47,983 bases of DNA from Alphaproteobacteria bacterium MarineAlpha3_Bin7 (GCA_002937995.1 PTLG01000001.1:1-47983), one strand, 5' to 3'. Counted from the stretch's first letter, positions 2,123 through 25,646 are shown. Numbers and translations: made by a program. Notes: generated by a model from the sequence alone, not told the origin.

Positions 2123-2244
2123 TAAAACTTTCCCTAAGTGTTGATTCTTTATTTCTTATGAATCAAGATACCACTTAGTTTGTAATTTGTGATAATTGTA
2201 TATCAGGATTTGAATGCAGAGTTGGGCCGAAATAGGCAAAAAAG

Positions 2245-3018: not shown

Positions 3019-3020
3019 AA

Positions 3021-7759: not shown

Positions 7760-7849
7760 TTAAAATAACCATTGTTGTATTTCTTGCTGAGTTTTGAGTA
7801 TAGTAGTATAGGAGATACTTTTCAAATATCAGGAGTAAATGGCAAAAAG

Positions 7850-8536
7850 ATGGCCAAGGAATTTATACCGGATATTGCCCTTCAAGATAATACGAGCCAG
7901 CGCCTCCCGTGTATAATTGTTGTAGATGGATCTAGATCGATGTCCTACAAGAAAGACGGGATAAGGCCCATAGATAGTTTGAATGAAGGCCTCAAGACCC
8001 TTGAGAACGAGCTTAAACAGGACGATACGGCTGTCCAGCGAGTGCAACTATTGGTTATTCGGTGTGGTGATGAGGATAGAGTGGAAATTGTTCAGGATTG
8101 GGTAGACGCCCTTGACTTTTCCGCTCCCGAAATTGTTGCAAAGGGTCGCACGCCATTGGGTGCAGCCGTTGGGGAGGGTCTCAAAAAAATCAGGGAACAA
8201 AAACAAAATTATATGGAATATGGAATACCATATAACCGACCCTGGCTATTTATAATTACCGATGGAGGCCCAACAGACAGGGGGTGGAAGAGGGTTGCGG
8301 ATGAATGCCGTGAAGCGGAAAATAACAATGAAGTTATGGTCTTTCCCATAGGCACAGAGGGAGCCAATTTTGAGAAGCTTAGCCTATTTTCAAACAGATC
8401 CCCCGTTGTGCTGGATGGGTTAAAGTTCAAGGAGATGTTTGTCTGGTTAAGCAGAAGTGTTTCCATCGCATCTGTAGCGGCACAGGGAGAAGAAGTGCAG
8501 ATTGAAGCGCCAGATTGGGGGGTAACAAAAGGGTAG
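7850..8536 (+). CDS. TerY-like von Willebrand factor A (vWA) protein, extra paralogue
   Basis: ATG at 7850 (MAKEFIPDIALQDNTSQRLPCIIVVDGSRSM). MIDAS motif D-G-S-R-S. NRPWLFIITDGGPTD. Clear paralogue of the vWA gene at 11102-11773. Confidence 0.85.
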   Translation: MAKEFIPDIALQDNTSQRLPCIIVVDGSRSMSYKKDGIRPIDSLNEGLKTLENELKQDDTAVQRVQLLVIRCGDEDRVEIVQDWVDALDFSAPEIVAKGRTPLGAAVGEGLKKIREQKQNYMEYGIPYNRPWLFIITDGGPTDRGWKRVADECREAENNNEVMVFPIGTEGANFEKLSLFSNRSPVVLDGLKFKEMFVWLSRSVSIASVAAQGEEVQIEAPDWGVTKG

Positions 8537-8652: not shown

Positions 8653-10278
8653 TTACTTCAGCTTAGCAATTAAACTACTATGAACAAATCCATCCAATCC
8701 CGCTAGATTGTTATTTTTTGTGGTTTTAAGAGTTACCAGTAGCCAAGGTTTCCCGTTTACTTTTCCAATTATTCTAATTTCAGATCCTTTGGGTAGGGTA
8801 ATTAGAACAGGGGAGGCTGTTCCGGGCTTTGTTCTTAAATTGGCAATTTTTAGGGTAAATCCGCTACCGTTTAGCTTAGTTATTTTTATGGGAATTTCGG
8901 TATTGGATGTGTCTTTTATTTTTTTTCGGGGAGCCTCTTTCTTTAGCGGTTTGGTTTTTGCAGTAGTTTTAAATTCGTAGTTGCCTAACGGTTTTTCTAT
9001 TTTTTCAGGAGTCTCTTTCCTCGGGGTGGCAGTTTCTTTACTTGTTTTGGTGGCTACATTCCCCGTATCTTCGTGAACCGGCCATAGAAATAAAGCCAGA
9101 CAGGAAGCTATTACGAGCCAAAGAGCTGTTTTTGATTGAAACCATGTTAGGGAAGATAAAGGTATTACTTTTCCCGACTGGTTAGGGGGAGGTGGTTTTA
9201 CTCGAGTAGTTTTTGTGGTTGCATGTTTTTTTGTGCTTTTTTTTCGACTTCTGGTCGGAGCAAGGGAAACGCCAGCTTCAACTGCACAAAAACCGCAACC
9301 CTTTGATTTACTGAAGTAAACGTGCTCGGAGTTTACTGGACACGTTAAAATCTTTTTTGATTTGGGGTCTGTATACTTCCGGAGCGTGCTACACCATTTT
9401 TGGGCACTGGGGCGATCTTCTTCCATAAATGACTGATCAAACATTTTCCTTAATTCATTTGGAAAACTATCATGGATACTTTGGGGTGCCGGCAGAATGG
9501 TCGAATGCACTGTTTGACCATAGCCGTAGTATCCCTTCTTTATCATTTCTGGAATTTGCGTCACCTGCGAACCTTTGGGCATGGAGCCCTGAAAGGGATG
9601 TAGTCCATTGTTGAGAAGTCGGAATATGATTACAGCTAGAGCAAACAGATCCTGTTCAACACCAAGCTCTTCTGGTAATTTCCCCGATCCTTCTGGGCAA
9701 ATATATTCATCTGTGAACTGGCTTGCTGGATATCTCTTATTTCCCTTTTCCTCAATGCTGAAACCATCACTATCCACCAGGGTAACAAACATCTTTTGAG
9801 GATGGATACGGCAATTGACGGGTTTGAGATCTATGATGTGGTGGCCCATCGCATGAAGTGCAGCAACAGAAAGAGAGAGGTTGTAAGCCAGAGTAAACCG
9901 GAAGCCCAGATGCTCGGGTAGTTTGCGATGTTTTCTCATTCGCCGCTGAAGCATATTTTCAAGTGACTTGGAACCCGCCGCTTCAGGCATCACATAACCA
10001 AGAAAATTTCCGCTATTGTCCTCAGCTAGCAGAGTTGGCCAGGTTACCTGGGGAAACCCCTCACTCGGGCTTTTAAATTTTGGGACGCTGGATAACATAG
10101 CGTTAAGCTTGGGTTTGTATTGAGCTCTGTCTTTTTCTGTTTTATAAATTTTCACACATTGCCCGGGCATTGTCGGTAACTTGTGAATATCGCCCGCACC
10201 ACCTCCCGCAAACCGCTTACCTAAAGACGTCTTATTCCGCTTGTTGGCCTTCGGATGCGTAAGGTAAACAGTGTTCAT
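8653..10278 (-). CDS. Ser/Thr protein kinase of the TerY-P triad, with Cys-ribbon, TM helix and C-terminal SH3-like domain
   Basis: 541 aa. Motifs: GGGAGDIHKL, CVKIYK (Lys), HHIIDLKPVNCRI (catalytic loop), LVDSDGF (DFG-like), YICPE. Then CPVNSEHVYFSKSKGCGFC, the TM helix TALWLVIASCLALFLWPV, and an SH3-like tail LKIANLRTKPGTASPVLITLPKGSEIRIIGK. Confidence 0.8.
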   Translation of the reverse strand: MNTVYLTHPKANKRNKTSLGKRFAGGGAGDIHKLPTMPGQCVKIYKTEKDRAQYKPKLNAMLSSVPKFKSPSEGFPQVTWPTLLAEDNSGNFLGYVMPEAAGSKSLENMLQRRMRKHRKLPEHLGFRFTLAYNLSLSVAALHAMGHHIIDLKPVNCRIHPQKMFVTLVDSDGFSIEEKGNKRYPASQFTDEYICPEGSGKLPEELGVEQDLFALAVIIFRLLNNGLHPFQGSMPKGSQVTQIPEMIKKGYYGYGQTVHSTILPAPQSIHDSFPNELRKMFDQSFMEEDRPSAQKWCSTLRKYTDPKSKKILTCPVNSEHVYFSKSKGCGFCAVEAGVSLAPTRSRKKSTKKHATTKTTRVKPPPPNQSGKVIPLSSLTWFQSKTALWLVIASCLALFLWPVHEDTGNVATKTSKETATPRKETPEKIEKPLGNYEFKTTAKTKPLKKEAPRKKIKDTSNTEIPIKITKLNGSGFTLKIANLRTKPGTASPVLITLPKGSEIRIIGKVNGKPWLLVTLKTTKNNNLAGLDGFVHSSLIAKLK

Positions 10279-10293
10279 GCGAGCCGAACTTTT

Positions 10294-11088
10294 TTAGCGC
10301 ATTGCCCATACAAGGGTCTTGTCATCTGGGGTACTACGTCGGACGATTTCTTTAGATAGCGTATTCCTAACAGCAACCTCATTTTTTTCACGTTCATTGT
10401 CGCGGATGAAGGAGAGAAGGGGGCTAACAAATTTCTCAAACGGGTGATTGTGCCCCTTGGACATGGCCATACCTTGGACGCCGTCACTCATTAGGAGTAT
10501 GGTATCACAATACTGGTAAAAAGGTTTTATCCGAAGATGCTCTTCCCAATTGCTCTCTGTAACAAAATAGGTTTGCTCTGCATAACCCCCGTTTGCAGGC
10601 TTGGATACTACACAGGCCATGAGGTTATTGGAACTAAAGGCGGTTCCCACCCCATCACCCACATGTATGAATGCACCACCCCTTTCATTGGCAATTGCAG
10701 CAACCAATGTCGAGTGAAAATCGCGGATTGTGGAAGGCCTTCTACTTTTGTTTTCTCCAGTTGTTAATTCTACTTCCGGGTATTCCAAAAGTAACTTTTC
10801 CTGTGCAGAAGAAATAGCAGAAATTATATTCGACCTAATGTATGCCTCTTCTGGAAAAATACGATCTTCAGGGTAATTTATTAATGCATCCACAACAGCT
10901 TCGGCAAAAACTTTCGAACCAAAATGACTTAGCCGCGCGCTCCCCGCTCCATCACAAACCGCCCCCACAAACGTATTGTTCTTGTTACATGTTAAGGCGT
11001 GAGCGTCCTGGCATGGTATGTTTTCTTCCTCATGAGAAAAACCGGTGACCGAGACCCCCCCATAAATCCAATTTTTCTTGTCTGTCAT
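10294..11088 (-). CDS. PP2C-like phosphatase (PP2C_2 type) of the TerY-P triad
   Basis: 264 aa. Motifs: GVSVTGFSHEEENIPCQDAHA, AVCDGAGSARLSHFGS, HVGDGVG, LLMSDGVQG. It sits 13 nt downstream of the vWA gene and 15 nt upstream of the kinase gene. Confidence 0.8.
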   Translation of the reverse strand: MTDKKNWIYGGVSVTGFSHEEENIPCQDAHALTCNKNNTFVGAVCDGAGSARLSHFGSKVFAEAVVDALINYPEDRIFPEEAYIRSNIISAISSAQEKLLLEYPEVELTTGENKSRRPSTIRDFHSTLVAAIANERGGAFIHVGDGVGTAFSSNNLMACVVSKPANGGYAEQTYFVTESNWEEHLRIKPFYQYCDTILLMSDGVQGMAMSKGHNHPFEKFVSPLLSFIRDNEREKNEVAVRNTLSKEIVRRSTPDDKTLVWAMR

Positions 11089-11101
11089 CGATCAATATTT
11101 A

Positions 11102-11773
11102 TCAGGTTGGGACTGAACCCCAGTCTACCGCCTCAAGCTGTACTTCGCTATCTTGGGCAGCCTGTGATGCAGAAGAGGTGCTCTTGCTAAGCCAGACAAA
11201 AAGTTCCTTGAATTTCAGACCATCAAGTTTAACAGGTTTTAGACTGGAGAATTTTTCTAATATATCAAAATTAGCTTCCTCGGTACCTATAGCAAATATG
11301 GTTACCTTGTTGTCATTTTCAGCTTCTCTGCATTCTTGGGCCGTCTCTTCCCAATCATACTCAGTTGGTTCACCGTCAGTAATCAGAAATATCCAAGGTC
11401 TATTGTAGGGTGTTGAATTTTCCCTAAGTGCTTCCTTCTGGTCTTCGATGCGTTCGAGGGCCATGGACATGGCCTTTCCCATTGGGGTCCTGCCATTGGC
11501 TTCAATTGTTGGTGCCTCAAAATCAACGGCATCAGTCCAGTCGGTTACAACTTCTACTTCGTCGTCATCTCCCATCCTTAGAACGCTTAGTCTTACGCGT
11601 TGGGCGGCAGTATCATCATTCTTGAGTTCCTGCTCCAGCACTTTGAGACCTTCGTTGAGCGCTTTGATTGGTTTTCCATCCATGGATCCAGATCCGTCAA
11701 GCACCAGCACGCAGGGTAGTCTTTGGCTCGTATTATCTGTTAACTGAATATCAGGAATTTCTAGTTCACTCAT
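11102..11773 (-). CDS. TerY-like vWA protein of the TerY-P triad
   Basis: 223 aa. Motifs: DNTSQRLPCVLVLDGSGSM (MIDAS D-x-S-x-S), NRPWIFLITDGEPT, LDGLKFKELFVWLS. Confidence 0.85.
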   Translation of the reverse strand: MSELEIPDIQLTDNTSQRLPCVLVLDGSGSMDGKPIKALNEGLKVLEQELKNDDTAAQRVRLSVLRMGDDDEVEVVTDWTDAVDFEAPTIEANGRTPMGKAMSMALERIEDQKEALRENSTPYNRPWIFLITDGEPTEYDWEETAQECREAENDNKVTIFAIGTEEANFDILEKFSSLKPVKLDGLKFKELFVWLSKSTSSASQAAQDSEVQLEAVDWGSVPT

Positions 11774-11840: not shown

Positions 11841-12449
11841 TTAGAGTTCGAGGCGTGCTAAAAGAAGTTCGTCCTCCAGAAATTTTCGTGTTAAAAAATA
11901 AAGTCCTATCCATATGGCTATTAACAACAATCCCCACCAAAAACCAGTCATAATCAATAGGCCGTAATCCAGAATAAGAACGGAAGCGGTATAACCTAGG
12001 ATTGTTATTCGAGCGAATATGCATCTCGCCTCTGCCTCTAACCAAGGTTTTGCCCTATACCAACCCGCCAAACCCAGTTGCTCTTTTTCTGTTTCTGCCT
12101 TTTGAAGTGTACCCTGAAGCCACAATTCCTTCTTTCTGGCCGATCTTATTTCCCGATTAAGTTTTTTACCGAGGGCACTGCGACTATCAAAGTCACCTTT
12201 TTTATTTCGGCGGACATTTTTTCCTCGTAATTCAATATCATTAATTTGTTGCTCAACCTGTTTTAGGTCATTCCTCACATCCAAGAGTTTTTTTTCGGCA
12301 CCTTGCAACCTCTTGGTTTCAGACCCAGTCAATCTGAAGCTTTCATTGGTTGTATATTTTTTTTTACGGAAATCGAACCATTTTTTTAGCTCAAAGTAGA
12401 TCCAGGAGATCGAAAATATCAAGATACCAAATTTAACTATCATAGACAT
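11841..12449 (-). CDS. Coiled-coil membrane protein, partner type A (paralogue of 17028-18047)
   Basis: 202 aa. N-terminal TM helix IVKFGILIFSISWIYF, a charged coiled coil of ~90 aa containing RNKKGDFDSRSALGK, and a C-terminal TM hairpin. Divergent from the KAP NTPase gene at 12643. Confidence 0.6.
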   Translation of the reverse strand: MSMIVKFGILIFSISWIYFELKKWFDFRKKKYTTNESFRLTGSETKRLQGAEKKLLDVRNDLKQVEQQINDIELRGKNVRRNKKGDFDSRSALGKKLNREIRSARKKELWLQGTLQKAETEKEQLGLAGWYRAKPWLEAEARCIFARITILGYTASVLILDYGLLIMTGFWWGLLLIAIWIGLYFLTRKFLEDELLLARLEL

Positions 12450-12642
12450 AATTTATAACCGTATATCTGGTTACTTTAATGAGTTCATAAAATAATAGCC
12501 CATAATTTGCAGAACGAGATAAAAATACGTTACTATCATTATTAAAATGCCGCAAGTTCATAAGGGAGTTATGATTTAACAACACTATCCAGGCATTTGT
12601 TTAGACCAATTGTACCATGGGTTTTTTCAAAGGGGTCAACTT

Positions 12643-14244
12643 ATGGAAAAGGATACAGATAGTTCCAAACCGATCAGTGAGAGGGTGGGTGTCACAGACT
12701 CACCATTAGATGATCTTGACGACGACAAACTTGAGGTGAGGCATTATGCGACGGCCTTGGCAGAGTTTGTAAAGAAAACAGTTACTCCTATGACAATTGC
12801 CATTCAGGGTGAGTGGGGAATGGGAAAAACCACATTTCTCAACCAGGTTTACAGGCAATTAGAGCCAGGAAAAGAGCAGGTTGAACCGGAAACCACCGAA
12901 GGAGCTAATAGTATTCTGAATATTAAATTAGATGCTTGGGATTATGCTCTCTTTAATGGGCCTGAGGAAGCTTTGCGACAAATAATTCATAAGCTTTCTG
13001 TGCGGATATCAGAGGGGGACCGAAAACAGTCAAGAAAGAAAAAAATTATCAATTCTACTACATCACTTGCCCGAAAGGCTTCTTTATTAGGTTTAGGATT
13101 TTTGCCGGGCATGGGTAATAACAAACTGTTGGAAGGGCTTGATATAATCAAAGACGCCGATTCACAGCATGTGCTTGACCTAAAGGAAAATCTGAAGAGT
13201 TCGGTTGCAGAATTAGGTTCCAGGGAAACTAACTCCTATGAAAGGATAGTAATTTACCTTGATAATCTTGATCGAATTAAGCCTGAAGTTGCAGTTGAAA
13301 TCCTCGATTCCCTTAAGATTATTTTTGATCTGGAAAAATGCGTGTTTCTGCTGGCTATTGACTATGATGTAGTTATCAAAGGGCTCGAGAAAAGGTTTGG
13401 CGTGAAGAGAGGGGAAAACGAGCGAGAATTCAGAGCCTATTTTGACAAGATAATACAATTGCCGTTTATGGTTCCCGGTGAGAAATTTCGTATAGGTAGT
13501 TATGTCAAGGAACTACTGAAGGATATTGGCTATAAAAAGGCCGATAAATTTGAAGTAGGGTTTCTAGAAAGTATTGTAAAATGTACAATCGGTGAAAATC
13601 CCCGGTCTATCAAACGGCTGGTAAATAGCCTGTCTCTTTACCAGTTCATCGACAGAAATGAGGGGCAAGAAAAACCGAAATCTGTGGAAGAACAATATTT
13701 AAGGTTTGGGCTTACATGTCTTCAGATATCAGACCGGAATATATATGATACGTTGCAACGTAATTCTGATTTTTTATCCTGGGATGAGAGTTTTTCAAGC
13801 GATGTAACCTATATCAAAGAGACGGAGGAAAAGGAATTCTCGGCCGCGCTGAAAAAGTTGAAGGAAGCAGGGGATGTAAACAAACCCTGGCAAGTATCAC
13901 TTTTCAAGGTCTGTTATGCCGATGTAGAGCTTAGGGAGAGGCATCAAGAAATTGCAAAGTTTTTTGATGAAGTCGTTGAGATATATGAGAAAAAAGAAAA
14001 AGCACTAAAGGCTCATATGGAGGAGGCAATGAAGTCTACCGAAGTGACAAATACAAGAGCAAAAAGGAGCGTACGTAAAAAAAGGAACTACCACTCCCCT
14101 CAAAAGAAAGAACTTGCTGCAAAACGTTTACAAGAACTGGGAAATACACACCAAAATAGGGTTGAGGTTGGTCGCGAATTTAATGCTCATGCCACAAGTA
14201 TAGGCCAGTGGTATGAAAAACATTATGGTGATAAGAACAAATGA
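12643..14244 (+). CDS. KAP-family P-loop NTPase (soluble) with C-terminal basic/HTH-like tail
   Basis: ATG at 12643 with AAGGGG upstream; the ORF-track TTG at 12610 is less likely. Motifs: Walker A IQGEWGMGKTTF, Walker B IVIYLDNLDR, FLLAIDYDVV, FDKIIQLPFMVP, NPRSIKRLVNS. Tail: RVEVGREFNAHATSIGQWYEKH. Confidence 0.85.
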   Translation: MEKDTDSSKPISERVGVTDSPLDDLDDDKLEVRHYATALAEFVKKTVTPMTIAIQGEWGMGKTTFLNQVYRQLEPGKEQVEPETTEGANSILNIKLDAWDYALFNGPEEALRQIIHKLSVRISEGDRKQSRKKKIINSTTSLARKASLLGLGFLPGMGNNKLLEGLDIIKDADSQHVLDLKENLKSSVAELGSRETNSYERIVIYLDNLDRIKPEVAVEILDSLKIIFDLEKCVFLLAIDYDVVIKGLEKRFGVKRGENEREFRAYFDKIIQLPFMVPGEKFRIGSYVKELLKDIGYKKADKFEVGFLESIVKCTIGENPRSIKRLVNSLSLYQFIDRNEGQEKPKSVEEQYLRFGLTCLQISDRNIYDTLQRNSDFLSWDESFSSDVTYIKETEEKEFSAALKKLKEAGDVNKPWQVSLFKVCYADVELRERHQEIAKFFDEVVEIYEKKEKALKAHMEEAMKSTEVTNTRAKRSVRKKRNYHSPQKKELAAKRLQELGNTHQNRVEVGREFNAHATSIGQWYEKHYGDKNK

Positions 14245-14267
14245 GGACCATATGAATGGGTATTATT

Positions 14268-14285
14268 TCTCAATAATTATTGAGA
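14268..14285. terminator. Perfect 18-nt palindrome between convergent genes (possible bidirectional terminator or protein site)
   Basis: TCTCAATAATTATTGAGA is its own reverse complement. It lies between the KAP gene stop (14244) and the stop of the minus-strand 83-aa ORF (14298). The stem is AT-rich and there is no clear U-tract. Confidence 0.25.
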
Positions 14286-14297
14286 GCTTTGTCGTGT

Positions 14298-14549
14298 CTA
14301 ATTTTCAATAGTCCCATTTAGCACTCCTATTTGGTCAAGAACCAGAATAAGAACACCGAACCAGACTCCTAACGAGTAAACATAAGTCATAAAAGGCGAG
14401 CGAGCGAGTCGGGTTTGTTGTCGAACCATCCCATAGCCCTTTGTATTGCCTACACTCATATACATAAGCCATTGAATTACCATTCCGGGGAAAAGAAAAA
14501 GGCGCTTTAGTATTCCAGGACCAATTCCAGCTATATTGTCTCTTGCCAT
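14298..14549 (-). CDS. Small hypothetical membrane protein
   Basis: 83 aa with two hydrophobic segments (LFLFPGMVIQWLMYM, YSLGVWFGVLILVL). No recognisable motif. Sits between the two KAP genes. Confidence 0.35.
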   Translation of the reverse strand: MARDNIAGIGPGILKRLFLFPGMVIQWLMYMSVGNTKGYGMVRQQTRLARSPFMTYVYSLGVWFGVLILVLDQIGVLNGTIEN

Positions 14550-14802
14550 TGAAAGAACTCTCTGAGAATGGATGTTTGAAACATTATTCTTAGTTTGCCA
14601 AAATGATTAAAAATACTCAACGTCAAATTGGGAGAAAAAATTACATTTGCCGCGATGGGTGTTTACCACTAACAGTGGAGACCTCGTAGGTGTAACGGTG
14701 GATGAATTAAAAGATATAAATGGCGTGAGCCCCGCACAAGCGGAAGTTATACAGCATCATTTCGGGTAAATGTTCACAGGATATTGATGCTTTTGAATTA
14801 AA

Positions 14803-16851
14803 TTATTCAACTTCATAGGTATAATCGGGGGCTAAATATTTAAGGGCCAGATCTCGTACTTGGGAAAAGCTATTTTCCGGGTTTTCCTCATCCCATTTTC
14901 CTTCTTCCTGAATTGCTTCATTTACGGAAGTTAGACTACCTTTCCCGTAGTCTATTTTTAACCTCTTATCCCAGTGATCTGATGCCATCTCTTGGGATTT
15001 GTCAATTAGAGAAAACAGGATATCTCTGTTCTTTTTATAAATAGTAAGGTCTGAAACGTGTACGTTATATCTGTCCGCATTGTGAGTTGTGCTTGCTTTA
15101 CCTGATCTAAATGTCCGGCCTGGCGTTACTGGTATATCAAAGATTTTTGGCATTTTGTAATCATCTTTAAAATGTCTAATTAATTGCAAAGATGTGCCGT
15201 TTTTTATGGATTTGCTAGATTCAAACTGGCATTTTAGAAATTTGTGTTTTGCAATATAGATGCTCATTCCACCAGTGAATAAAAATTCTGCTTCTTGATA
15301 ACGAGTTTTCAGATCATTATACAACACCGTCATAAATTCAACTGCTTCGGGGTTGGCGTTTTTATTTTCCGTTCCATCTAGGATCCAACTGTCAAAACCG
15401 TCCAGAATACGTCTTTTATAGGCTCCTTCTCTCTCAGGTAAGATGGTTTGACCCTGATCCGTGCTTGTTACACTGGTAACGGATGTCTGGCTTAAAATAT
15501 CTGCAATAATGTTACCTAATTCGTCCACTCGATCTTGAAGTATTTCTTCTTTAAGGTAGTTAAAGAACTTAGATATGTCAGTGCTACGTGGTTTAAGTCG
15601 AGGGCGGACATAGCAAATACGGTATAGTGACTGTTCCCAATCCTCGTCAAAATTATCAGATTTTTTTGCATTTTCAAATTCCCGTTCAAAAACACCCTCA
15701 GCATCTTCCTCAGATCGATTTGTTTCCTTAAAGGCCAGATTGTCATCCCAGATGAGAAAGTTAGGTTCTCTGGTTAAAAGGCTATAGACTGGGGGATAGG
15801 CTATTTGCAGGCATAGCAGGGCAAATAGAAGAAATTTTTCATCATTAATATTTTGTTCTTCGTCTTCCGGTTCTGCGATATCCGTTGTGGCAACTTCGTC
15901 CTTATCTATCTTCTCCTGGGTAAATATCTGAATTAGGGAGACGGAATTCACAAGCCTTTTTATAGAACGAGGATTACCTCCAATGGTGCGACGTATAATC
16001 TCCGTTAGTGCCTCTTCGTCCAGATCTGTTTGTATAAAATCCACTTTTCTAAGAAGAGAATTAACGTATTTTCCAATATTATACTGGCCCATAGGCATCA
16101 TAAAGGGAAGTTGAATGATCTTGTCAAAAAATGCCCGAAACTCCCATTCATTTTCTGCTGTCTGTTTGCCAAACTTATGCTCTAAGCCCTTAACCACAAC
16201 CTGGTAGTCAATAGCCAGAATAAAAATACATTTGGGAACACTAAAAATATTTTTTAGTAATTCCAGGATTGCAACTGCATTTTTGGGCTCTATTCGGTCA
16301 AGATCATCCACATAAATTACCACTTTTTCATAAGGGTTCGTGGACCGATCTGCCATTTGTTCCACAACTTCACTTAGTTGCTTGCGTAGTTCCGCTATAC
16401 TCTTTGCACCGGTATCCAGCAGTTCCTTCGCAACCTCTCCCGCAGCATTGCCGAGTGCAACTTGAGCTCCAACCCTCAGTGCTCCTTTAAATATTGCTTC
16501 GGCGCCTCCTTTTATATTTTTTTTTCGAGTTTCATTCGGGTCTGACTCAATCAGTTCATCTATAATTCTATTAATAATTTTTAAGAGGGCTTCCTCCGGT
16601 GTGGAAAGTAGGGAGTACTCCCAGGAATTAATCCAGATCTGTTTTGTTTTCTCATCACCTTCAAAGTGATGGTGAATGCTATTAATAAGTGATGTCTTAC
16701 CGCTACCCCATTCACCCTGTATACCAATTGTAATGGGGGTATTTGTCTTTTCTATAAATTTAATGAGTGAATTGGTGTGGACATTTATATCGAGTTCGTC
16801 AGGATCTTTGCCTGGCACTGGTTCGTCTATGACACCTATTAGTTTATCCAT
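14803..16851 (-). CDS. KAP-family P-loop NTPase (soluble) with ~220-aa uncharacterised C-terminal domain
   Basis: ATG at 16851 (MDKLIGV) preceded by GGGGGGG. Motifs: Walker A IQGEWGSGKTSL, Walker B VVIYVDDLDR, FILAIDYQVV, FDKIIQLPFMMP, NPRSIKRLVNS. Paralogue of 12643-14244. Confidence 0.85.
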   Translation of the reverse strand: MDKLIGVIDEPVPGKDPDELDINVHTNSLIKFIEKTNTPITIGIQGEWGSGKTSLINSIHHHFEGDEKTKQIWINSWEYSLLSTPEEALLKIINRIIDELIESDPNETRKKNIKGGAEAIFKGALRVGAQVALGNAAGEVAKELLDTGAKSIAELRKQLSEVVEQMADRSTNPYEKVVIYVDDLDRIEPKNAVAILELLKNIFSVPKCIFILAIDYQVVVKGLEHKFGKQTAENEWEFRAFFDKIIQLPFMMPMGQYNIGKYVNSLLRKVDFIQTDLDEEALTEIIRRTIGGNPRSIKRLVNSVSLIQIFTQEKIDKDEVATTDIAEPEDEEQNINDEKFLLFALLCLQIAYPPVYSLLTREPNFLIWDDNLAFKETNRSEEDAEGVFEREFENAKKSDNFDEDWEQSLYRICYVRPRLKPRSTDISKFFNYLKEEILQDRVDELGNIIADILSQTSVTSVTSTDQGQTILPEREGAYKRRILDGFDSWILDGTENKNANPEAVEFMTVLYNDLKTRYQEAEFLFTGGMSIYIAKHKFLKCQFESSKSIKNGTSLQLIRHFKDDYKMPKIFDIPVTPGRTFRSGKASTTHNADRYNVHVSDLTIYKKNRDILFSLIDKSQEMASDHWDKRLKIDYGKGSLTSVNEAIQEEGKWDEENPENSFSQVRDLALKYLAPDYTYEVE

Positions 16852-16961
16852 TTTGTTATTCCCCCCCTGAACAACCCTGACCTGTACACTCTCTAGGTGG
16901 TTCTGCAATTTTCAGTAAATTAGTCTCATATCATTATAAAAAAGCATTATTACATTTGTAT

Positions 16962-16997
16962 CAAGGTTGATTTTCCTATCAAAACAAGGTTTGATTT
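16962..16997. repeat. Direct repeat CAAGGTTGATTT / CAAGGTTTGATTT in the divergent KAP/partner promoter region
   Basis: Copy 1 is at 16962-16973 and copy 2 at 16985-16997 (one extra T). Start-to-start spacing is 23 bp. The repeat lies 30-65 bp upstream of the ATG at 17028. Confidence 0.4.
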
Positions 16998-17027
16998 AGA
17001 AAATTAATAAAAAAGGTAGGGGAAATT

Positions 17028-18047
17028 ATGCAAGCATTTATATTTGTAGCGTTTTGGGGCATAGCAGGTCTTATTGTGTATTTTTTAATTGTCGGAGGAA
17101 TACTTATCTGGCCCATCGTAAATGTATTAGCATACCTTAAGGTCTTGTTATTTCCCAGTGCTGTAAGAAAAATTCATGGAGTAGACCTAAATGTTCTCTC
17201 AAATACCCAGTTTACATCTTCAATTTCTTATAGTGATGTGGAGTATTATGAGGAATTTGAAAGTATGACCGAAACAAATGTAAAGGCTATAAAGGCTGAG
17301 AGAACAGCGGACACAGAAATAAAAAAACTTGAAAAATTGATTAAATCGGCAAGTGACCAGTTTGAAGCATTGGGCAACCTCCCAAGAAATAAAGATGGTA
17401 GTATTTCTCAACGAAGTAATAAAGGAAAGCAGGGAGTAGAACTACAGAAGTCTATAAATTCCCATGAACGTGATTTGGGGCAAATTAATGGAAAATATTC
17501 AAGCGAAATAGAGAAGTATGAAAATAGTCTGGAGATTGAGCGCGACAAATTATTTTCTCGACCGTTTAACGATTGGTTAGAGTGGAGAGGCAGAATGGGG
17601 CGATATTTAGGAAACCGGGATGCCATAGTTTTTATGGTGGTGGGCTTCCCTCTTTACTTTTTTATTCTGTCTATCTTTTCATGGCTTGATCTAGAAGACC
17701 CATCTTTTCTGGGCATTATAGAGCTATACGTTTATACAGTCTTTGTGGGTCCAGTGTCTGGAATTTTTGATCTCGATGTTTTTAAAGAGGGAGCATTTTC
17801 TATTCTCATTACTTATGATTATGCCTCATATTTAAGCCGGACTTGGGATAGTGCATTTACATTTTACAACTGGCTCTTACTAACTTTACCTATGCCAATT
17901 CTTACCCTCTGTACTTATGCTCTCCGTTACCATCAGCACACATCAAAAGCTGATACTGTTCGACCGACCGAGAAAATGTCCTTAAAGGAAATAAAGTCAG
18001 CTTTAAAACAAAGGGTAATCGATGACGTTCCTGAAGCGCAAGCGTAG
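17028..18047 (+). CDS. Coiled-coil multi-pass membrane protein, partner type B (paralogue of 11841-12449)
   Basis: 339 aa. GGTAGGGG lies upstream of the ATG. Two N-terminal TM helices, a coiled coil containing RNKDGSISQRSNKGK, and then several TM helices. Divergent from the KAP NTPase gene at 16851. Confidence 0.6.
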   Translation: MQAFIFVAFWGIAGLIVYFLIVGGILIWPIVNVLAYLKVLLFPSAVRKIHGVDLNVLSNTQFTSSISYSDVEYYEEFESMTETNVKAIKAERTADTEIKKLEKLIKSASDQFEALGNLPRNKDGSISQRSNKGKQGVELQKSINSHERDLGQINGKYSSEIEKYENSLEIERDKLFSRPFNDWLEWRGRMGRYLGNRDAIVFMVVGFPLYFFILSIFSWLDLEDPSFLGIIELYVYTVFVGPVSGIFDLDVFKEGAFSILITYDYASYLSRTWDSAFTFYNWLLLTLPMPILTLCTYALRYHQHTSKADTVRPTEKMSLKEIKSALKQRVIDDVPEAQA

Positions 18048-18296: not shown

Positions 18297-19277
18297 TCAG
18301 AGAGTTCCAAACCATTCTGTTCGATTGGGGTGAACCATATTTGAGAGTTCCTCGGGCTTTATTACCTCTACGTTTTTCCCCCATTGATAGAGGTGCCATG
18401 CCATTTCAAGAATACCCCCAGCCTCAAACTCTACTCTAACAGATCCATCAGGTTCCCGGATTACAATCTGATCAGGATGAAAGCGATAGTTGAGAACATC
18501 TTCCGCAACTTTTGGTGAGAACTTCCAGACGACTTCAAATGGTTCCTCACTAAAAACGCCAAATGATTTATTGGTGTATTCTTCTATAGAAAATTTTTCG
18601 TCTCTTACAAAATATTTTCCGGTTATTTCTACTTCCTCAATATTAGGCATAGCAAATTTTCGTATATCCTTGGCTTTTTCATCGAAAGCTAGAAGATAAT
18701 GTCTATGGCCGTAAATAAGCCCGAGGGGGTGAACTACTCTTTTTGTGCTTCTCTGTGTTTTACGATTTTTATGTCTTATTTTTATTATTTCGCACCCCTT
18801 AATTGCCTCTCTGAGGTCCTCTAGCACAAGTGAACTTATTCTTGGTTTAGGTCCAGGCCTCATCGCTAAGCCTTCTGCTTCTAGGAGTGCCTCCAGGTCA
18901 GGTTCTACTCTTCTAGCGATTTTGCTATCTAATAATGCTCTCAGTTTTGTTGAGAGATCTGCCATGTTTGCCGCGGCGTCCTGCATATTATCACGCTTTA
19001 ATATTTCAACGACAGTATCCAGGTCAGCCAACTCTTCTGGTGTAAATGATATTAGTCGATCCGTTACGCCAGTTGGGATACGCCAGCGTTTTTTTCGGTC
19101 TTCCGAAGTCATTTCGTCAACTTGGGGAAACACCCGCATAACACTATCTTTCATTCTCATTGCAGTCCGTCGACCTACAGAAAAACGCTCCTGGATATCT
19201 TCCAGCGAAACGCCACTGCGGCGGGCCTGCATCTCTAGAGCAAGGTGTATGAGGTCTTCAAATTTTTCGTAACGCAC
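18297..19277 (-). CDS. WYL-domain transcriptional regulator (N-terminal HTH + WYL + C-terminal extension)
   Basis: 326 aa. HTH: GVSLEDIQERFSVGRRTAMRMKDSV. WYL core: VVHPLGLIYGHRHYLLAFDEKAKDIRKF. C-terminal WCX-like region. Confidence 0.8.
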   Translation of the reverse strand: MRYEKFEDLIHLALEMQARRSGVSLEDIQERFSVGRRTAMRMKDSVMRVFPQVDEMTSEDRKKRWRIPTGVTDRLISFTPEELADLDTVVEILKRDNMQDAAANMADLSTKLRALLDSKIARRVEPDLEALLEAEGLAMRPGPKPRISSLVLEDLREAIKGCEIIKIRHKNRKTQRSTKRVVHPLGLIYGHRHYLLAFDEKAKDIRKFAMPNIEEVEITGKYFVRDEKFSIEEYTNKSFGVFSEEPFEVVWKFSPKVAEDVLNYRFHPDQIVIREPDGSVRVEFEAGGILEMAWHLYQWGKNVEVIKPEELSNMVHPNRTEWFGTL

Positions 19278-21139: not shown

Positions 21140-21679
21140 ATGAGAACAGCTCGAAAAATAGGACAGGTTTCGCTTTTATTTTGGCTCTTTGTGTTTCTGG
21201 TGGGTTGTCAGACAATGGATCCAAATTTTTCCTCGTTTCTGGATAGTGATTCTAATTTTAATATGCCAGAACAAATAATTTTGCCTAGGGATCACGCTGA
21301 AATTAGAGGAAAAAGTCGGGCAGAAACGAATGTTTACAATGCTATCGAGCTAGGAAAACAAAAGCGTTACACCGAAGCCGATAAACTTCTGCGTGAGGTA
21401 AGAGGACTTCAGTATAAGGAAGGAGAGGCTTATAGATCTATAACTAACGCACTAGCAGTGATCGCTCTGAAACGAGGGGATCTAGGAGCTTTTAGGCGGC
21501 TTGCCGGAGAGCTTGATATTCTTTTAGGTAAGCCACTCAGGGTACCTGGAAAACACTTATCTATAATTTCTTTGGAGCGGGCTATATCTGGCGGCCCACT
21601 GCCTTTAAATGCCCCTGAACGCTTTCGACAGTTCAGGAACAACTATTTTTCTAATCTTTCAAAAACTAGGAAACTTTAA
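21140..21679 (+). CDS. Lipoprotein, helical/TPR-like
   Basis: 179 aa. Signal peptide with lipobox FLVGC. Helical repeats (YNAIELGKQKRYTEADKLLREV; NALAVIALKRGDLGAFRRLAGEL). Confidence 0.6.
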   Translation: MRTARKIGQVSLLFWLFVFLVGCQTMDPNFSSFLDSDSNFNMPEQIILPRDHAEIRGKSRAETNVYNAIELGKQKRYTEADKLLREVRGLQYKEGEAYRSITNALAVIALKRGDLGAFRRLAGELDILLGKPLRVPGKHLSIISLERAISGGPLPLNAPERFRQFRNNYFSNLSKTRKL

Positions 21680-21681
21680 AA

Positions 21682-22662
21682 ATGAAAACATTATTAATAA
21701 TTTTTTTCTCATGTTTGTTTGCTGCGACAAATAGTATCGTGGCTGCAGCTACCCAGTCTTCCATAAACAAGGACATGTTCGACACATACGAAAAAATTAA
21801 CGAGAGGACAATTGATCACGAAGAGAAAGTAGAAGCATTGGATGCTCAGAAGAAGGTCATACACAGCAAAATAATTGACCTAAAAAAGCAGCTGGACAAG
21901 CTCTCGCAAGACAAAAATAAAAAGAACAAAGAGCAAATTCGTCTAATTAGGGCAGAAATGAATGCTCAGTCAGCTCAGTATCTGGCATTGGAATTCAAAC
22001 TAGTCACAAGCGCAAAAAATACAATTTCTTCAAACCTGATGGACATTAACAGGGTTCGCGAGAGGCTAGCTAATTCGCCAGCCTCGAAGGCACAATTTAG
22101 GCAACTCAAGAAGAAAATGGAGAAGAATATACAACTTGGTCGCAGTATGAAGAAAAATCTGATTGTTCTGGATCAGTGGGCACAGTCGGATCCAATACTT
22201 CGGGCAAAAATCAGATCATTAGATAGAATTATGGAAAATCTGGATACAAGAATAGAGATCCAGAAGCGCAAATTTCCGATGGATAACAAGGGAAATCGAA
22301 CCAATATTGATAGTAGAAGGCTAGAGGCCTTAAATTTGGCTAATGATCGTTTAGTTGAAGAGTTATCTTCCATAGAAACGCGAATAGATTGGTTAAAACT
22401 CTATAAGGATAAACTAGAGATTAATCTAGATCTATTCAGGGTTCAAAGAACTCTTGATATCACAAATCAGGCACTTCCTCGGTTGCGAATTGGTGAGACT
22501 GGCGGTGGGAGCCCAAGTGGGAAAGTACTAAATATTATTGACGATCTCAACAACGGGATGATGAAAGACACAGATACTATAATTGAGAACCCAAGTACTG
22601 TGCCCAAACCTGATGCAGGACGACCTATAAAAATAGATTTTAAAAAATTTAAAAACTTTTAA
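21682..22662 (+). CDS. Secreted coiled-coil protein
   Basis: 326 aa. Signal peptide MKTLLIIFFSCLFAATNSIVAAA, then long heptad-like charged sequence. Starts 2 nt after the previous stop. Confidence 0.6.
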   Translation: MKTLLIIFFSCLFAATNSIVAAATQSSINKDMFDTYEKINERTIDHEEKVEALDAQKKVIHSKIIDLKKQLDKLSQDKNKKNKEQIRLIRAEMNAQSAQYLALEFKLVTSAKNTISSNLMDINRVRERLANSPASKAQFRQLKKKMEKNIQLGRSMKKNLIVLDQWAQSDPILRAKIRSLDRIMENLDTRIEIQKRKFPMDNKGNRTNIDSRRLEALNLANDRLVEELSSIETRIDWLKLYKDKLEINLDLFRVQRTLDITNQALPRLRIGETGGGSPSGKVLNIIDDLNNGMMKDTDTIIENPSTVPKPDAGRPIKIDFKKFKNF

Positions 22663-22674
22663 GGAGTTAGTTTA

Positions 22675-23073
22675 ATGAAAAAAAATATTTTAGCAGTTCT
22701 ATTTCTCACATTTGCATTTTCCTTAATACACGGAACATCACATGCAGGAGAAAAAGACCAGTTCAAAAATATTACGGTTAAACTGGTGGAGCAAGCCAAT
22801 CACCTTTGTAACAGTATTATACCCATTTGGATAAAGTCAAAGTCAGGGATGCGTGATCAATCGGTACGGCGCCTGGTGACTGACTGCTATCTGGCTCAAG
22901 CACGTTTACCCGGTATCGGTCGTAAGTCGGAGATATTGGTCAAACCAGTATCTCTTGATGAAGTACCTTTAGCCATCCTAGAAAAACAAACGGGCTTTGT
23001 GTTTAATGAGTATGCGCCGCTTGCCGGTGTTAGATTGCGTGTTCTAAAGACTGGGAAATCCGAAAATGAGTAA
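22675..23073 (+). CDS. Secreted hypothetical protein
   Basis: 132 aa. Signal peptide MKKNILAVLFLTFAFSLIHGTSHA. Its 3' end overlaps the next gene by 8 nt. Confidence 0.55.
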   Translation: MKKNILAVLFLTFAFSLIHGTSHAGEKDQFKNITVKLVEQANHLCNSIIPIWIKSKSGMRDQSVRRLVTDCYLAQARLPGIGRKSEILVKPVSLDEVPLAILEKQTGFVFNEYAPLAGVRLRVLKTGKSENE

Positions 23074-23581
23074 AGCAATCGAAGCACCCAAGCCCGTTTC
23101 TGTGGGTAAAATAGGAAGGGAAATCAATTCGGTACTACTGTCGATTATAGTATTAGTGCTGATAGTTATGTTCCTCGATATAAGCTTCTCCATGGATCAA
23201 TTTGGGGAGGCGGAAAAATTTCTTAACAAGTTTGTAGGAATTGCTTGGCCTTTTTTTGTAATAGTCAGCCTCTTTATTAATTGGGTCTTTGGTGCCTGGT
23301 TAACCGAGGTTTTTGTCTCAGACAGCAAACGGGACTGGAGTAAAGTGGTGCGTTACTTGGACTGGGCTGCAGAGGCTTGCCCATACGTCGGTTTGCTTAC
23401 AACTTTTTTTACATTTCTACGGGCACTCCTGGTCTACAGTGATGCTGGCCCAGGAAACCCCGAGACACAGGCAGCCTTTATAAAGCAGTTTGCAATAGCC
23501 TTTGGTTCCTCAATTACTGGGGGAGTATTGGCCTTGGCAGCATTTACATTGGGTGCATTAGTAACGGGGGGCAGGCGATAA
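23066..23581 (+). CDS. Miniature MotA/TolQ/ExbB-family proton-channel protein
   Basis: 171 aa with four hydrophobic helices. Helix 3, CPYVGLLTTFFTFLRAL, matches the P-x-x-G-L-(F/L)-G-T helix of ExbB/TolQ/MotA. The last helix is FAIAFGSSITGGVLALAAF. Confidence 0.6.
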   Translation: MSKAIEAPKPVSVGKIGREINSVLLSIIVLVLIVMFLDISFSMDQFGEAEKFLNKFVGIAWPFFVIVSLFINWVFGAWLTEVFVSDSKRDWSKVVRYLDWAAEACPYVGLLTTFFTFLRALLVYSDAGPGNPETQAAFIKQFAIAFGSSITGGVLALAAFTLGALVTGGRR

Positions 23582-24040
23582 ATGGAGAATAATAATGATA
23601 TTTCCCACAAGTCGCCAACAACCAGAGGGAAAGCTCTTGGCTCAACCAGATCCAGATCATTAAGGCCCCCAACATTGATGATAGATCTTCTTTTTGGGGC
23701 CCTAATGCTTTTTGCCTTCCAGATGGGGTATGTAGACCAGCCTGTTGTTCCAAAGGATATTGAACTTCCCGCCACGAAGGCAGACGTTAAGTCAAAAACG
23801 AAGGAAATCTTGGCGCTGGTACCTGTAAAGAATAAGGCCGGTAACTGGGAATACAGAGTTCCGAGTGGAAAAATTCTTAGTGCTAAGGCTGTGCAGAAAG
23901 AAGTAGCAAAGAATAACAAGACACCCGTACTTATTTTTTCAAAAAAGACAAGTCTACAGGTTTACCTAGAAGCTGAACAACAATTGCGCGAACTGGGGCT
24001 TAAACCGGGTCTTGCAACTAATAACAAGAAGGGAACTTAG
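23582..24040 (+). CDS. ExbD/TolR-family protein
   Basis: 152 aa. TM helix with a conserved Asp (PPTLMIDLLFGALMLFAF), then KDIELPAT, then TPVLIFSKKTSLQVYLEAEQQLRELGL. This is colinear with E. coli ExbD as I recall it. The ATG directly abuts the previous stop. Confidence 0.7.
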   Translation: MENNNDISHKSPTTRGKALGSTRSRSLRPPTLMIDLLFGALMLFAFQMGYVDQPVVPKDIELPATKADVKSKTKEILALVPVKNKAGNWEYRVPSGKILSAKAVQKEVAKNNKTPVLIFSKKTSLQVYLEAEQQLRELGLKPGLATNNKKGT

Positions 24041-24042
24041 AT

Positions 24043-25619: not shown

Positions 25620-25646
25620 AATTGAAACGAGATTAGGAGAAGCGTA

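What the first reader, a model, noticed from the sequence alone, without database searches (positions are those of the whole stretch)
11841..18047. Two 'soluble KAP NTPase + coiled-coil multi-pass membrane protein' modules: a possible split form of transmembrane KAP (PifA/Tmn-type) defence NTPases
Seen: there are two paralogous KAP-family NTPases (12643-14244 +, 14803-16851 -). They share Walker A GEWG(M/S)GKT, Walker B (I/V)Y(L/V)D(N/D)LDR, F(L/I)LAIDY, FDKIIQLPFM and NPRSIKRLVNS.

Each sits head-to-head, across a ~190- or ~175-bp spacer, with a membrane protein (11841-12449 -, 17028-18047 +). Both membrane proteins have the same build: N-terminal TM helices, a ~90-aa charged coiled coil and a C-terminal TM bundle. 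The pair is duplicated, not just the NTPase, which argues the two genes function together.

Established: KAP NTPases (named after Kidins220/ARMS and PifA) characteristically carry TM helices inserted in the P-loop domain. PifA mediates T7 exclusion. To my recollection, a TM-containing KAP NTPase (tmn) was reported as an anti-phage gene.

Seen: neither NTPase here has a convincing TM insert between Walker A and B; there are only short amphipathic stretches.

Inference: the membrane component is supplied in trans, giving a two-gene membrane-coupled NTPase sensor/effector present in two diverged copies.
Basis: partly seen in the sequence, partly recalled or inferred. Interest (0 to 1): 0.75.

Follow-up and report, generated by a model that had tools for sequence, protein, structure and literature searches.

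The report
KAP NTPases beside hairpin membrane proteins
Two soluble KAP-type NTPase genes each sit next to a membrane protein from one previously undescribed family. Only one pairing recurs in other genomes; the other membrane protein belongs to the neighbouring TerY-P kinase/phosphatase defence operon, which the second KAP gene has interrupted.

Summary
Two KAP P-loop NTPases (37% identical, no TM insert) each lie head-to-head with a membrane protein.

The two membrane proteins are homologous. They belong to an unannotated superfamily (at least 180 clusters) with this plan: N-terminal TM helix or helices, a cytoplasmic helical hairpin tipped by the loop [RK]-N-K-D-G-x-x-x-x-R-S-x-x-G-K, then C-terminal TM helices.

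The "two duplicated KAP + membrane modules / split TM-KAP" reading is only half right.

- **memA (202 aa).** All three independent homologues with readable context sit directly upstream of vWA(TerY)–PP2C–Ser/Thr kinase, with no KAP nearby. In one of them the 83-aa TM gene at 14298-14549 has a homologue immediately before memA. In the window KAP1 lies between these two genes on the other strand, so it looks like an insertion into a five-gene TerY-P operon.
- **memB (339 aa).** Its family is next to KAP2-clade genes in 4 of about 10 fully assessable loci, in three different arrangements. Two distant family members also sit directly upstream of KAPs. But only 2 of the 80 best-matching KAP loci have such a partner, and the closest KAP2 orthologues have none. 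The pairing is real but facultative.

PifA lacks TM helices and Tmn belongs to the YobI family, so the "split" premise is weak. Mechanism remains inference.

The parts
8653..10278 (-). Ser/Thr kinase with a C-terminal SH3_3 domain and a hydrophobic segment between the two; last gene of the TerY-P-type operon
   Evidence: Pfam Pkinase 9e-09 and SH3_3 9e-10. Orthologues are 43-48% identical in L113 and L116 in the same operon position.
10294..11088 (-). PP2C phosphatase of the TerY-P-type operon
   Evidence: Pfam PP2C_2 4e-40. Orthologues in L113 and L116.
11102..11773 (-). TerY-like vWA protein
   Evidence: Pfam VWA 1e-12. PADLOC TerY 1e-05. 69% identical orthologues in L113 and L116.
11841..12449 (-). 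memA: short-form hairpin membrane protein; conserved gene directly upstream of the TerY-P triad
   Evidence: Homologues P0075, P0136 and P0195 sit directly upstream of vWA-PP2C-kinase. Subfamily HMM E=9e-48. AF2 pLDDT 85.5.
12165..12209 (-). memA hairpin-tip loop RNKKGDFDSRSALGK (residues 81-95)
   Evidence: N82, R90, G94 and K95 are invariant; G85 and S91 are at least 90% conserved in alignment A5. The loop lies between helices H42-75 and H92-163 in the AF2 model.
12450..12642 (.). 193-bp divergent spacer between memA and KAP1
   Evidence: Read directly from the sequence. No convincing operator repeat or promoter consensus.
12643..14244 (+). KAP1: soluble KAP P-loop NTPase, 533 aa; lies between small83 and memA on the opposite strand
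   Evidence: Pfam KAP_NTPase 1e-36. PADLOC PifA 2e-30. No TM segment. Position relative to the L116 operon.
12808..12831 (+). KAP1 Walker A GEWGMGKT
   Evidence: Alignment.
13252..13275 (+). KAP1 Walker B IYLDNLDR
   Evidence: Alignment.
14298..14549 (-). small83: 83-aa TM protein; likely first gene of the ancestral small83-memA-TerY-PP2C-kinase operon
   Evidence: A 60% identical homologue lies directly before (ending at the start of) the memA-like gene in L116-118. One hydrophobic segment at residues 52-81.
14803..16851 (-). KAP2: soluble KAP P-loop NTPase, 682 aa, with a roughly 210-aa C-terminal region that has no Pfam match
   Evidence: Pfam KAP_NTPase 2e-38. PADLOC PifA 5e-33 and PDC-S20 1e-30. 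C-terminal region without Pfam hit. 435 relatives found in the GTDB species-representative genome scan.
16693..16716 (-). KAP2 Walker A GEWGSGKT
16294..16317 (-). KAP2 Walker B IYVDDLDR
16852..17027 (.). 176-bp divergent spacer between KAP2 and memB
   Evidence: Only one weak 14-nt inverted repeat.
17028..18047 (+). memB: long-form hairpin membrane protein; facultative neighbour of KAP2-clade NTPases
   Evidence: 39 homologues. KAP adjacent in L004, L016 and L021. AF2 pLDDT 89, pTM 0.70.
17385..17429 (+). memB hairpin-tip loop RNKDGSISQRSNKGK (residues 120-134)
   Evidence: N121, G124 and R129 are invariant; S130, G133 and K134 are at least 90% conserved in A1. The loop lies between H96-114 and H131-176.
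18297..19277 (-). WYL/WCX transcription regulator, convergent with memB; possible regulator of the island
   Evidence: Pfam WYL 4e-12 and WCX 1e-12. WYL/WCX homologues lie next to KAPs in L030 and L058.

Best explanation
The region is a defence island holding two separate systems that share one kind of membrane protein.

**System 1: a membrane-anchored TerY-P operon.** Its genes on the minus strand are small83, memA, the TerY vWA protein, PP2C and a membrane Ser/Thr kinase. A solo KAP NTPase gene (KAP1) has landed between small83 and memA in the opposite orientation.

**System 2: KAP2 plus memB.** This is a facultative two-gene module. A soluble KAP NTPase with a variable C-terminal region is encoded beside a hairpin membrane protein.

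memA and memB belong to one undescribed superfamily. Its cytoplasmic helical hairpin carries an almost invariant tip loop, N-K-D-G-x4-R-S-x2-G-K.

**Inferred mechanism.** The membrane protein is the membrane-side output or anchor. The tip loop is where the cytosolic partner docks. That partner is the vWA/kinase/phosphatase set in TerY-P and the NTPase in KAP2-type loci. Phage sensing by the cytosolic partner is passed to the TM bundle and perturbs the membrane, in the manner of RexA/RexB or PifA.

Shown: homology, architecture and gene linkage. Inferred: docking, topology and membrane output.
For: **KAP identity and lack of TM.**

**One superfamily.**
- An exhaustive profile search finds 180 cluster representatives at E<=1e-3.
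- Most of the listed full-length representatives carry the loop motif with TM segments on either side.
- The non-circular HMM gives memB 2.8e-17 and memA 5.2e-17.
- The two AF2 models share the same plan.
- No Pfam or NCBIfam model covers the family.

**memA belongs to TerY-P.**
- The P0075, P0136 and P0195 contexts all read mem, vWA, PP2C, kinase, with gaps from -11 to 43 nt and no KAP.
- TerY is 69% identical to the window's.
- The small83 homologue directly precedes the memA-like gene in L116-118.
- Superfamily members fused to TerB domains (P0103, P0150) tie the family independently to the Ter network.

**KAP2-memB link.**
- KAP then mem in L004/5/6 (92-nt gap) and L016/17 (67-nt gap); mem then KAP in L021 (overlapping); divergent in the window.
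- Distant members sit directly upstream of KAPs in Marinicella (L075) and Sulfurospirillum (L034).
- The KAP clade gave only 435 matches across 185,579 species genomes, so immediate adjacency in six independent loci is far above chance.
Against: **The KAP2-memB pairing is not obligate.**
- At least six fully assessable memB-family loci have no KAP: L001, L014, L019, L109, L110 and L111. Four more show none on the visible side.
- Only 2 of the 80 best-matching KAP loci have a family member adjacent.
- The closest full-length KAP2 orthologues (L025-L031) have none.
- KAP and partner do not clearly co-diverge (rho 0.44, p 0.10).

**The insertion of KAP1 rests on thin evidence.** It depends on a single orthologous operon that has small83. 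There is no GC signature or clear target-site repeat.

**A KAP-TerY-P link cannot be excluded.** A KAP directly precedes a TerY-P triad in L054.

**The docking idea is untested.**
- The near-invariant Ser is Asn in TerY-P-linked P0136, which weakens a phospho-switch role for that residue.
- No structural analogue was found to suggest pore activity.
Confidence: 0.6

Rival explanations
1. First reader's model. There are two diverged copies of one two-gene system, a soluble KAP NTPase plus a membrane partner supplied in trans. The system is a split version of transmembrane KAP defence NTPases.
For: Both KAPs are soluble and each is divergently paired with a homologous membrane protein across a similar spacer of about 180 bp. 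memB-type and more distant family members recur next to KAPs.
Against: - memA homologues are conserved with TerY-P and not with KAP in 3 of 3 cases.
- KAP1 separates small83 from memA, which are adjacent elsewhere.
- KAP1 is not a local duplicate of KAP2.
- No KAP-membrane fusion was found among the ten longest listed proteins, and the KAP HMM does not hit the membrane proteins.
- Most KAPs of this clade are solo.
- PifA lacks TM helices and Tmn is YobI-family.
Confidence: 0.1
2. Nothing is paired. KAP1 and KAP2 are autonomous single-gene defences (KAP domain plus a variable C-terminal region). memB is an autonomous island gene. Adjacency only reflects crowding in defence islands.
For: - Single-gene KAP proteins with uncharacterised C-terminal regions protect against phage (PMC13552941).
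- 78 of the 80 best-matching KAP loci lack a partner, and their neighbours are assorted restriction genes.
- Most memB homologues lack a KAP and sit beside integrases, resolvases or transposases.
Against: There are six independent immediate adjacencies. They include overlapping or tightly spaced co-directional pairs (26-134 nt gaps or overlap) in three phyla-level lineages and three gene orders. That is far more than expected for a KAP clade that gave 435 matches across 185,579 species genomes.
Confidence: 0.22
3. One supersystem. The KAP NTPases, hairpin membrane proteins, TerY-P triad and WYL regulator act together, with the KAPs as extra sensors feeding the TerY-P and membrane output.
For: - L054 has KAP, TerY, PP2C and kinase as one tight co-directional cluster.
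- In the window KAP1 abuts the TerY-P operon.
- WYL/WCX regulators flank KAPs in L030 and L058.
Against: Orthologous TerY-P operons with memA-like genes have no KAP within 6 kb. Only 1 of the 80 surveyed KAP loci has TerY-P. The sister-strain locus L008 differs by an extra gene exactly at the KAP2/small83 junction, as expected for separate modules.
Confidence: 0.08

Closest known systems
PifA (F plasmid, T7 exclusion), KAP family
   Same: It is the best PADLOC match for both NTPases (E=2e-30 and 5e-33). It is a KAP fold without TM helices, and it acts at the membrane by depolarisation and nucleotide leakage (PMC13001434). From my own knowledge, overproducing the inner-membrane protein FxsA suppresses F exclusion (Wang, Cheng and Molineux 1999, listed among the references seen). 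That is a precedent for a soluble KAP working with a membrane protein.
   Different: The match covers only the NTPase part (profile positions 7-400 of 720). The C-terminal regions are unrelated. FxsA is not encoded next to pifA. No sequence relation between FxsA and memA or memB was tested.
Single-gene KAP NTPase defences with variable C-terminal regions (EF_KAP and relatives)
   Same: These have a KAP domain followed by an unannotated C-terminal region, and they depend on Walker B (PMC13552941). Most members of the KAP2 clade are likewise solo genes in defence islands.
   Different: EF_KAP has TM helices; KAP1 and KAP2 have none. A subset of the KAP2 clade has an adjacent hairpin membrane protein.
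TerY-P triad (vWA TerY + PP2C + Ser/Thr kinase)
   Same: The three domains occur in the canonical order and tight spacing at 8653-11773. TerY-P-like modules are stand-alone antiphage systems (PMC10542128).
   Different: - The triad is preceded by a conserved hairpin membrane protein, and sometimes by an 83-aa TM protein.
- The kinase carries SH3_3 or Sel1 domains instead of the OB fold or zinc ribbon described in the literature.
- Only TerY hits a PADLOC model, and weakly.
Tmn (YobI-family transmembrane NTPase)
   Same: It is a membrane-coupled P-loop NTPase defence.
   Different: It belongs to a different NTPase family and has two TM helices inside the P-loop domain. It is a single gene forming a decameric Mg2+ exporter (PMC13001434). 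Pfam and PADLOC scans of KAP1 and KAP2 listed no Tmn or YobI model.
RexA/RexB of phage lambda (from my own knowledge)
   Same: This is a functional analogy only: a cytosolic sensor encoded beside a polytopic membrane protein that depolarises the cell.
   Different: No sequence or fold relation was found or tested. RexA is not an NTPase.
QatA of QatABCD
   Same: NCBIfam QatA and PADLOC QatA hit both NTPases (E as low as 6e-32).
   Different: The scores (75 and 111 bits) are far below the equivalog cut-off of 600. No QatB, QatC or QatD-type domain was found in the flanking genes scanned.

Membership tests
KAP family P-loop NTPases (Pfam PF07693) | Match to the family profile above the curated threshold, with intact Walker A and Walker B | tested here: met
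   127 and 133 bits against a cut-off of 20. GEWG[MS]GKT and D[ND]LDR are present.
KAP family P-loop NTPases (Pfam PF07693) | Transmembrane helices associated with the NTPase (typical of the family but absent from PifA) | tested here: not met
   No hydropathy peak of TM grade between Walker A and Walker B. The literature states that PifA also lacks them, so this does not exclude membership.
PifA orthologue | Full-length similarity to PifA, including its C-terminal half | tested here: not met
   PADLOC PifA matches cover only profile positions 7-400 (KAP1) and 8-316 (KAP2) of 720.
Tmn / YobI-family NTPase | YobI-type P-loop domain with two TM helices inserted after Walker A | tested here: not met
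   No TM insert. The best families are KAP, PifA, PDC-S20 and QatA, with no YobI or Tmn model among the hits. Family definition from PMC13001434.
QatABCD | QatA equivalog score plus adjacent QatB, QatC (QueC-like) and QatD (TatD-like) genes | tested here: not met
   75 and 111 bits against a cut-off of 600. The neighbours scanned carry no such domains.
TerY-P triad | Adjacent co-directional genes for a TerY-like vWA, a PP2C phosphatase and a Ser/Thr kinase | tested here: met
   VWA 1e-12, PP2C_2 4e-40 and Pkinase 9e-09 at 11102-11773, 10294-11088 and 8653-10278, all on the minus strand.
TerY-P triad | Kinase fused to a C-terminal OB fold (validated defence version) or zinc ribbon (CoCoNuT-linked version) | tested here: not met
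   The C-terminal domain is SH3_3. Orthologues have SH3_3 or Sel1. Definition.
Hairpin-loop membrane protein superfamily (defined here) | N-terminal TM helix or helices, a helical hairpin with the tip loop N-K-D-G-x4-R-S-x2-G-K, and C-terminal TM helices | tested here: met
   memA has RNKKGDFDSRSALGK and memB has RNKDGSISQRSNKGK. Independent HMM E=5e-17 and 3e-17. AF2 models.
Two-gene KAP + hairpin membrane protein module (proposed) | Conserved adjacency of the two genes across lineages | tested here: inconclusive
   For memB-type and distant members there are six independent adjacencies. But at least six loci lack a KAP, and 78 of the 80 surveyed KAP loci lack the partner. For memA-type, 0 of 3 are next to a KAP.
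Two-gene KAP + hairpin membrane protein module (proposed) | Physical or genetic dependence between the two proteins | not testable with these tools
   No multimer prediction or experiment was available.

The most novel reading that the evidence does not exclude
The hairpin-loop membrane proteins are a shared membrane output or adaptor module that different conflict systems plug into. These systems include the TerY-P kinase/phosphatase/vWA triads, soluble KAP NTPases, Ank-repeat proteins and TerB-domain proteins. On this reading the family is the missing membrane component of TerY-P. The invariant cytoplasmic tip loop is the switch through which phosphorylation or NTP hydrolysis opens or assembles the TM bundle.
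Probability: 0.3. Interest if true: 0.75.

Novelty: new variant of a known kind. Interest (0 to 1): 0.5.

Why it matters
KAP NTPases and TerY-P triads are both recognised antiphage components, but how either produces its effect is unknown. The main result here is a sizeable, unannotated membrane-protein family with a near-invariant cytoplasmic loop.

- Its short form is consistently the gene directly upstream of TerY-P triads.
- Other forms recur beside soluble KAP NTPases.

This suggests a concrete, mutable membrane partner for both systems. It also gives testable constructs: the triad with and without memA and small83, KAP2 with and without memB, and loop point mutants.

The work is also a caution. 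Two look-alike gene pairs in one island are not necessarily copies of one module.

Tried and rejected
- **Direct memA versus memB comparisons.** BLASTP (E=0.007) and hhalign (E=4.8e-4, 28 columns) were too weak on their own. The question was settled only through the wider family.
- **Pattern scans for memB relatives.** GTDB representative genomes and IMG/VR gave nothing. A degenerate-motif DNA scan of IMG/VR gave nothing. tblastn of a typical member against plasmids and phages gave nothing.
- **Third word-indexed protein search.** Run with a mixed alignment, it was capped at 8000 candidates and returned only 6 proteins.
- **Foldseek.** Both models against the PDB and memB against BFVD gave no match better than E=0.3, only generic coiled coils.
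- **PDB sequence search of KAP2.** No hit.
- **Promoter, terminator and inverted-repeat scans of the two divergent spacers.** Nothing above chance and no shared operator.
- **Signatures of KAP1 insertion.** Gene-by-gene GC and GC3 do not discriminate. The only flanking repeat is a 20-nt, 75% inverted pair (I2), too weak to use.
- **Co-divergence of KAP and partner.** Not significant.
- **Fission of a TM-KAP.** Considered and rejected: there is no profile similarity and no fusion.
- **L016 392-aa ORF.** It hit my KAP HMM (2e-24) but shows no BLASTP similarity to its neighbouring KAP and no Pfam hit. Left unexplained.

Full report
**Source and observation**

The window comes from the MAG 'Alphaproteobacteria bacterium MarineAlpha3_Bin7'. 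The six genes of interest are deposited as hypothetical proteins PPR66301-06.

Both NTPases are clear KAP-family members: Pfam PF07693 E=1e-36 and 2e-38. Their best antiphage-library match is PifA (2e-30 and 5e-33), followed by PDC-S20 and QatA.

A 19-residue hydropathy scan finds no TM-grade segment in KAP1 (maximum 1.48). KAP2 has two peaks of 1.78-1.79, at residues 193-220 and 340-360, outside the Walker A-B interval where KAP TM inserts are expected; I read them as core elements of the fold. The spacers are 193 bp and 176 bp, and memA ends 67 nt before the vWA gene.

**The two membrane proteins are homologous**

Direct comparison of memA and memB is marginal: BLASTP E=0.007 and hhalign E=4.8e-4 over 28 columns. 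The 39 memB homologues show why those 28 columns stand out. They share an almost invariant stretch, L-G-x-L-x-[RK]-N-K-D-G-S-I-S-Q-R-S-x-x-G-K. memA has the same residues at the same spacing (RNKKGDFDSRSALGK).

An exhaustive profile search of 1.84 billion representatives found 180 clusters at E<=1e-3. Most of the listed full-length proteins are 190-350 aa and have N-terminal TM segments, the loop [RK]N.DG....RS..GK, and C-terminal TM segments.

A profile built only from 66 mid-sized members, with all memA and memB relatives excluded, scores memB at 2.8e-17 and memA at 5.2e-17, each over nearly its full length.

The AF2 models are confident and share one plan: TM helix or helices, a long antiparallel helical hairpin with the conserved loop at its tip, and a second helix that runs on into the C-terminal TM helices.
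- memB: pLDDT 89.0, pTM 0.70.
- memA: pLDDT 85.5, pTM 0.66.

By the positive-inside rule the hairpin is cytoplasmic, because K/R clusters flank it on both membrane-proximal sides. This is inference from the sequence.

No Pfam or NCBIfam model covers the family. Foldseek finds no analogue in the PDB or BFVD.

**memA belongs to the TerY-P operon, not to KAP1**

memA itself has only near-identical relatives in the word-indexed search. The exhaustive search, however, revealed a short subfamily with the loop RNK.G[DE]FD.RS.LGKK.

All three subfamily members that lie on long contigs have the same context: the membrane gene is followed directly by vWA, PP2C and a Ser/Thr kinase. The gap to the vWA gene ranges from -11 to 43 nt, and no KAP lies within 6 kb. 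The TerY proteins of L113 and L116 are 69% identical to the window's, so these are orthologous systems.

In L116-118 a 60%-identical homologue of the window's 83-aa TM ORF (14298-14549) ends at the start of the memA-like gene. In the window, small83 and memA are on the same strand, but KAP1 separates them on the opposite strand.

The simplest reading is a five-gene operon (small83, memA, TerY, PP2C, kinase) into which KAP1 has inserted. I found no GC signature and no convincing flanking repeat to confirm this.

KAP1 is also not a local duplicate of KAP2. It is 30-39% identical to every surveyed member of the clade, KAP2 included.

**memB and KAP2: a real but facultative link**

| Arrangement | Loci | Spacing |
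|---|---|---|
| KAP then mem, co-directional | L004/5/6; L016/17 | 92 nt; 67 nt |
| mem then KAP, overlapping | L021 | overlap |
| Divergent | window and sister strain L008 | 176 bp |
| mem directly upstream of KAP (distant members) | L075 Marinicella gelatinilytica; L034 Sulfurospirillum MAG | 134 nt; 26 nt |

The KAP clade gave 435 matches across 185,579 species genomes. Six independent immediate adjacencies in three gene orders cannot be chance.

The link is nevertheless far from universal.
- Six memB-family loci with both flanks visible have no KAP (L001, L014, L019, L109, L110, L111). Four more show none on the visible side.
- Many of these sit next to integrases, resolvases or a transposase.
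- Only 2 of the 80 best-matching KAP loci have a family member adjacent.
- The closest full-length KAP2 orthologues (L025-L031, 49-59% identity) have none.
- A domain census of 137 KAP neighbours shows no dominant partner, only assorted restriction genes: GIY-YIG, PvuRts1I/SRA, GmrSD and DUF2779.
- KAP and partner divergence correlate weakly (rho 0.44, p 0.10).

**The 'split TM-KAP' idea**

- The KAP profile does not hit memA or memB.
- None of the ten longest of the 150 listed superfamily proteins carries a KAP domain. Their fusions are to Ank repeats, TerB+DnaJ, TerB+TM2, TonB_C and DUF4190.
- The literature states that PifA lacks TM helices and that Tmn is a YobI-family NTPase, not a KAP (PMC13001434).
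- Soluble KAPs are normal. Single-gene KAP proteins with unannotated C-terminal regions have been shown to be antiphage defences (PMC13552941).

**Most likely mechanism (inferred)**

The membrane proteins are the membrane-side anchor or output element. The invariant cytoplasmic tip loop is the contact site for the cytosolic partner.

- In TerY-P loci the partner would be the vWA/kinase/phosphatase set. The TerB fusions tie the family independently to the Ter network.
- In KAP2-type loci the partner would be the NTPase, whose variable C-terminal region would sense infection.
- The outcome would be membrane perturbation, by analogy with PifA and RexAB (my own knowledge).

The nearly invariant Ser of the loop is Asn in TerY-P-linked P0136. 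A simple phospho-switch at that residue is therefore unlikely to be general.

A KAP that directly precedes a TerY-P triad in a Flavobacteriales MAG (L054) keeps open a looser KAP-TerY-P connection.

**Verdict**

The more interesting result is the undescribed hairpin-loop membrane-protein superfamily and its consistent position directly upstream of a TerY-P variant. The descriptions of the TerY-P triad that I could read mention three genes only. I rate it as a new variant of known kinds of system and of moderate interest. Gene contexts for the bulk of the superfamily could not be surveyed because the context look-ups were exhausted.

Noticed in passing
window 21140-26297 (+): Eight consecutive co-directional ORFs (179, 326, 132, 171, 152, 215, 310 and 216 aa) with no Pfam hit at all. 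This is an unexplained operon just right of the island.
   Followed up: no
window 175-4037 (+) and 7772-8536 (+): A second eukaryote-type signalling set. It comprises a DUF5710+Pkinase protein, PP2C, a PD-(D/E)XK nuclease and a MORN+PG_binding protein. A weak second vWA gene lies at 7772-8536, with an ATP-grasp-like gene and a bPH_2 gene in between. It may be another TerY-P-like system.
   Followed up: no
L054 4063-9844 (Flavobacteriales MAG DUAL01000237.1): A KAP NTPase of the same clade is followed by TerY (27-nt gap), PP2C and a 743-aa kinase on the same strand. There is no hairpin membrane protein. GmrSD is encoded divergently upstream.
   Followed up: partly
L008 2330-2719: The sister-strain locus carries an extra 129-aa HHH-motif gene exactly between KAP2 and small83. 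The window has only a 253-bp gap there (14550-14802).
   Followed up: no
P0059, P0062, P0103, P0150, P0096, P0177; L105 2051-2314: Superfamily members are fused C-terminally to Ank repeats, TerB+DnaJ, TerB+TM2, TonB_C or DUF4190. In L105-108 an Ank-repeat gene overlaps the end of the membrane gene.
   Followed up: partly
L004 1344-3544, L032 7016-9247, L017 2311-4539: A protein with an N-terminal 2-TM segment and a C-terminal AAA ATPase (one 743-aa protein, or split in two) recurs next to KAP genes of this clade. A PvuRts1I/SRA type IV restriction enzyme and a Band_7 gene are often nearby.
   Followed up: no
L016 4938-6116: A 392-aa ORF with an N-terminal TM segment lies just downstream of the memB homologue. 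It hit my local KAP HMM at 2e-24, yet it has no Pfam hit and no BLASTP similarity to the adjacent KAP.
   Followed up: partly
window 14020-14244 (KAP1 C-terminus): The last 40 or so residues of KAP1 (GNTHQNRVEVGREFNAHATSIGQWYEKH) look like a helix-turn-helix by eye, but no Pfam model matches.
   Followed up: partly
L112 2-1371: A mid-sized superfamily member (P0087) lies 80 nt downstream of an Ion_trans cation-channel gene on the same strand. Ion_trans and TrkA_C genes also appear twice each among the KAP neighbours.
   Followed up: no
window 18297-19277; L030 4024-4992; L058 7784-8686: WYL/WCX-type regulators lie next to KAP-clade genes in at least three loci. This suggests BrxR/CapW-style transcriptional control of these NTPases.
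   Followed up: partly
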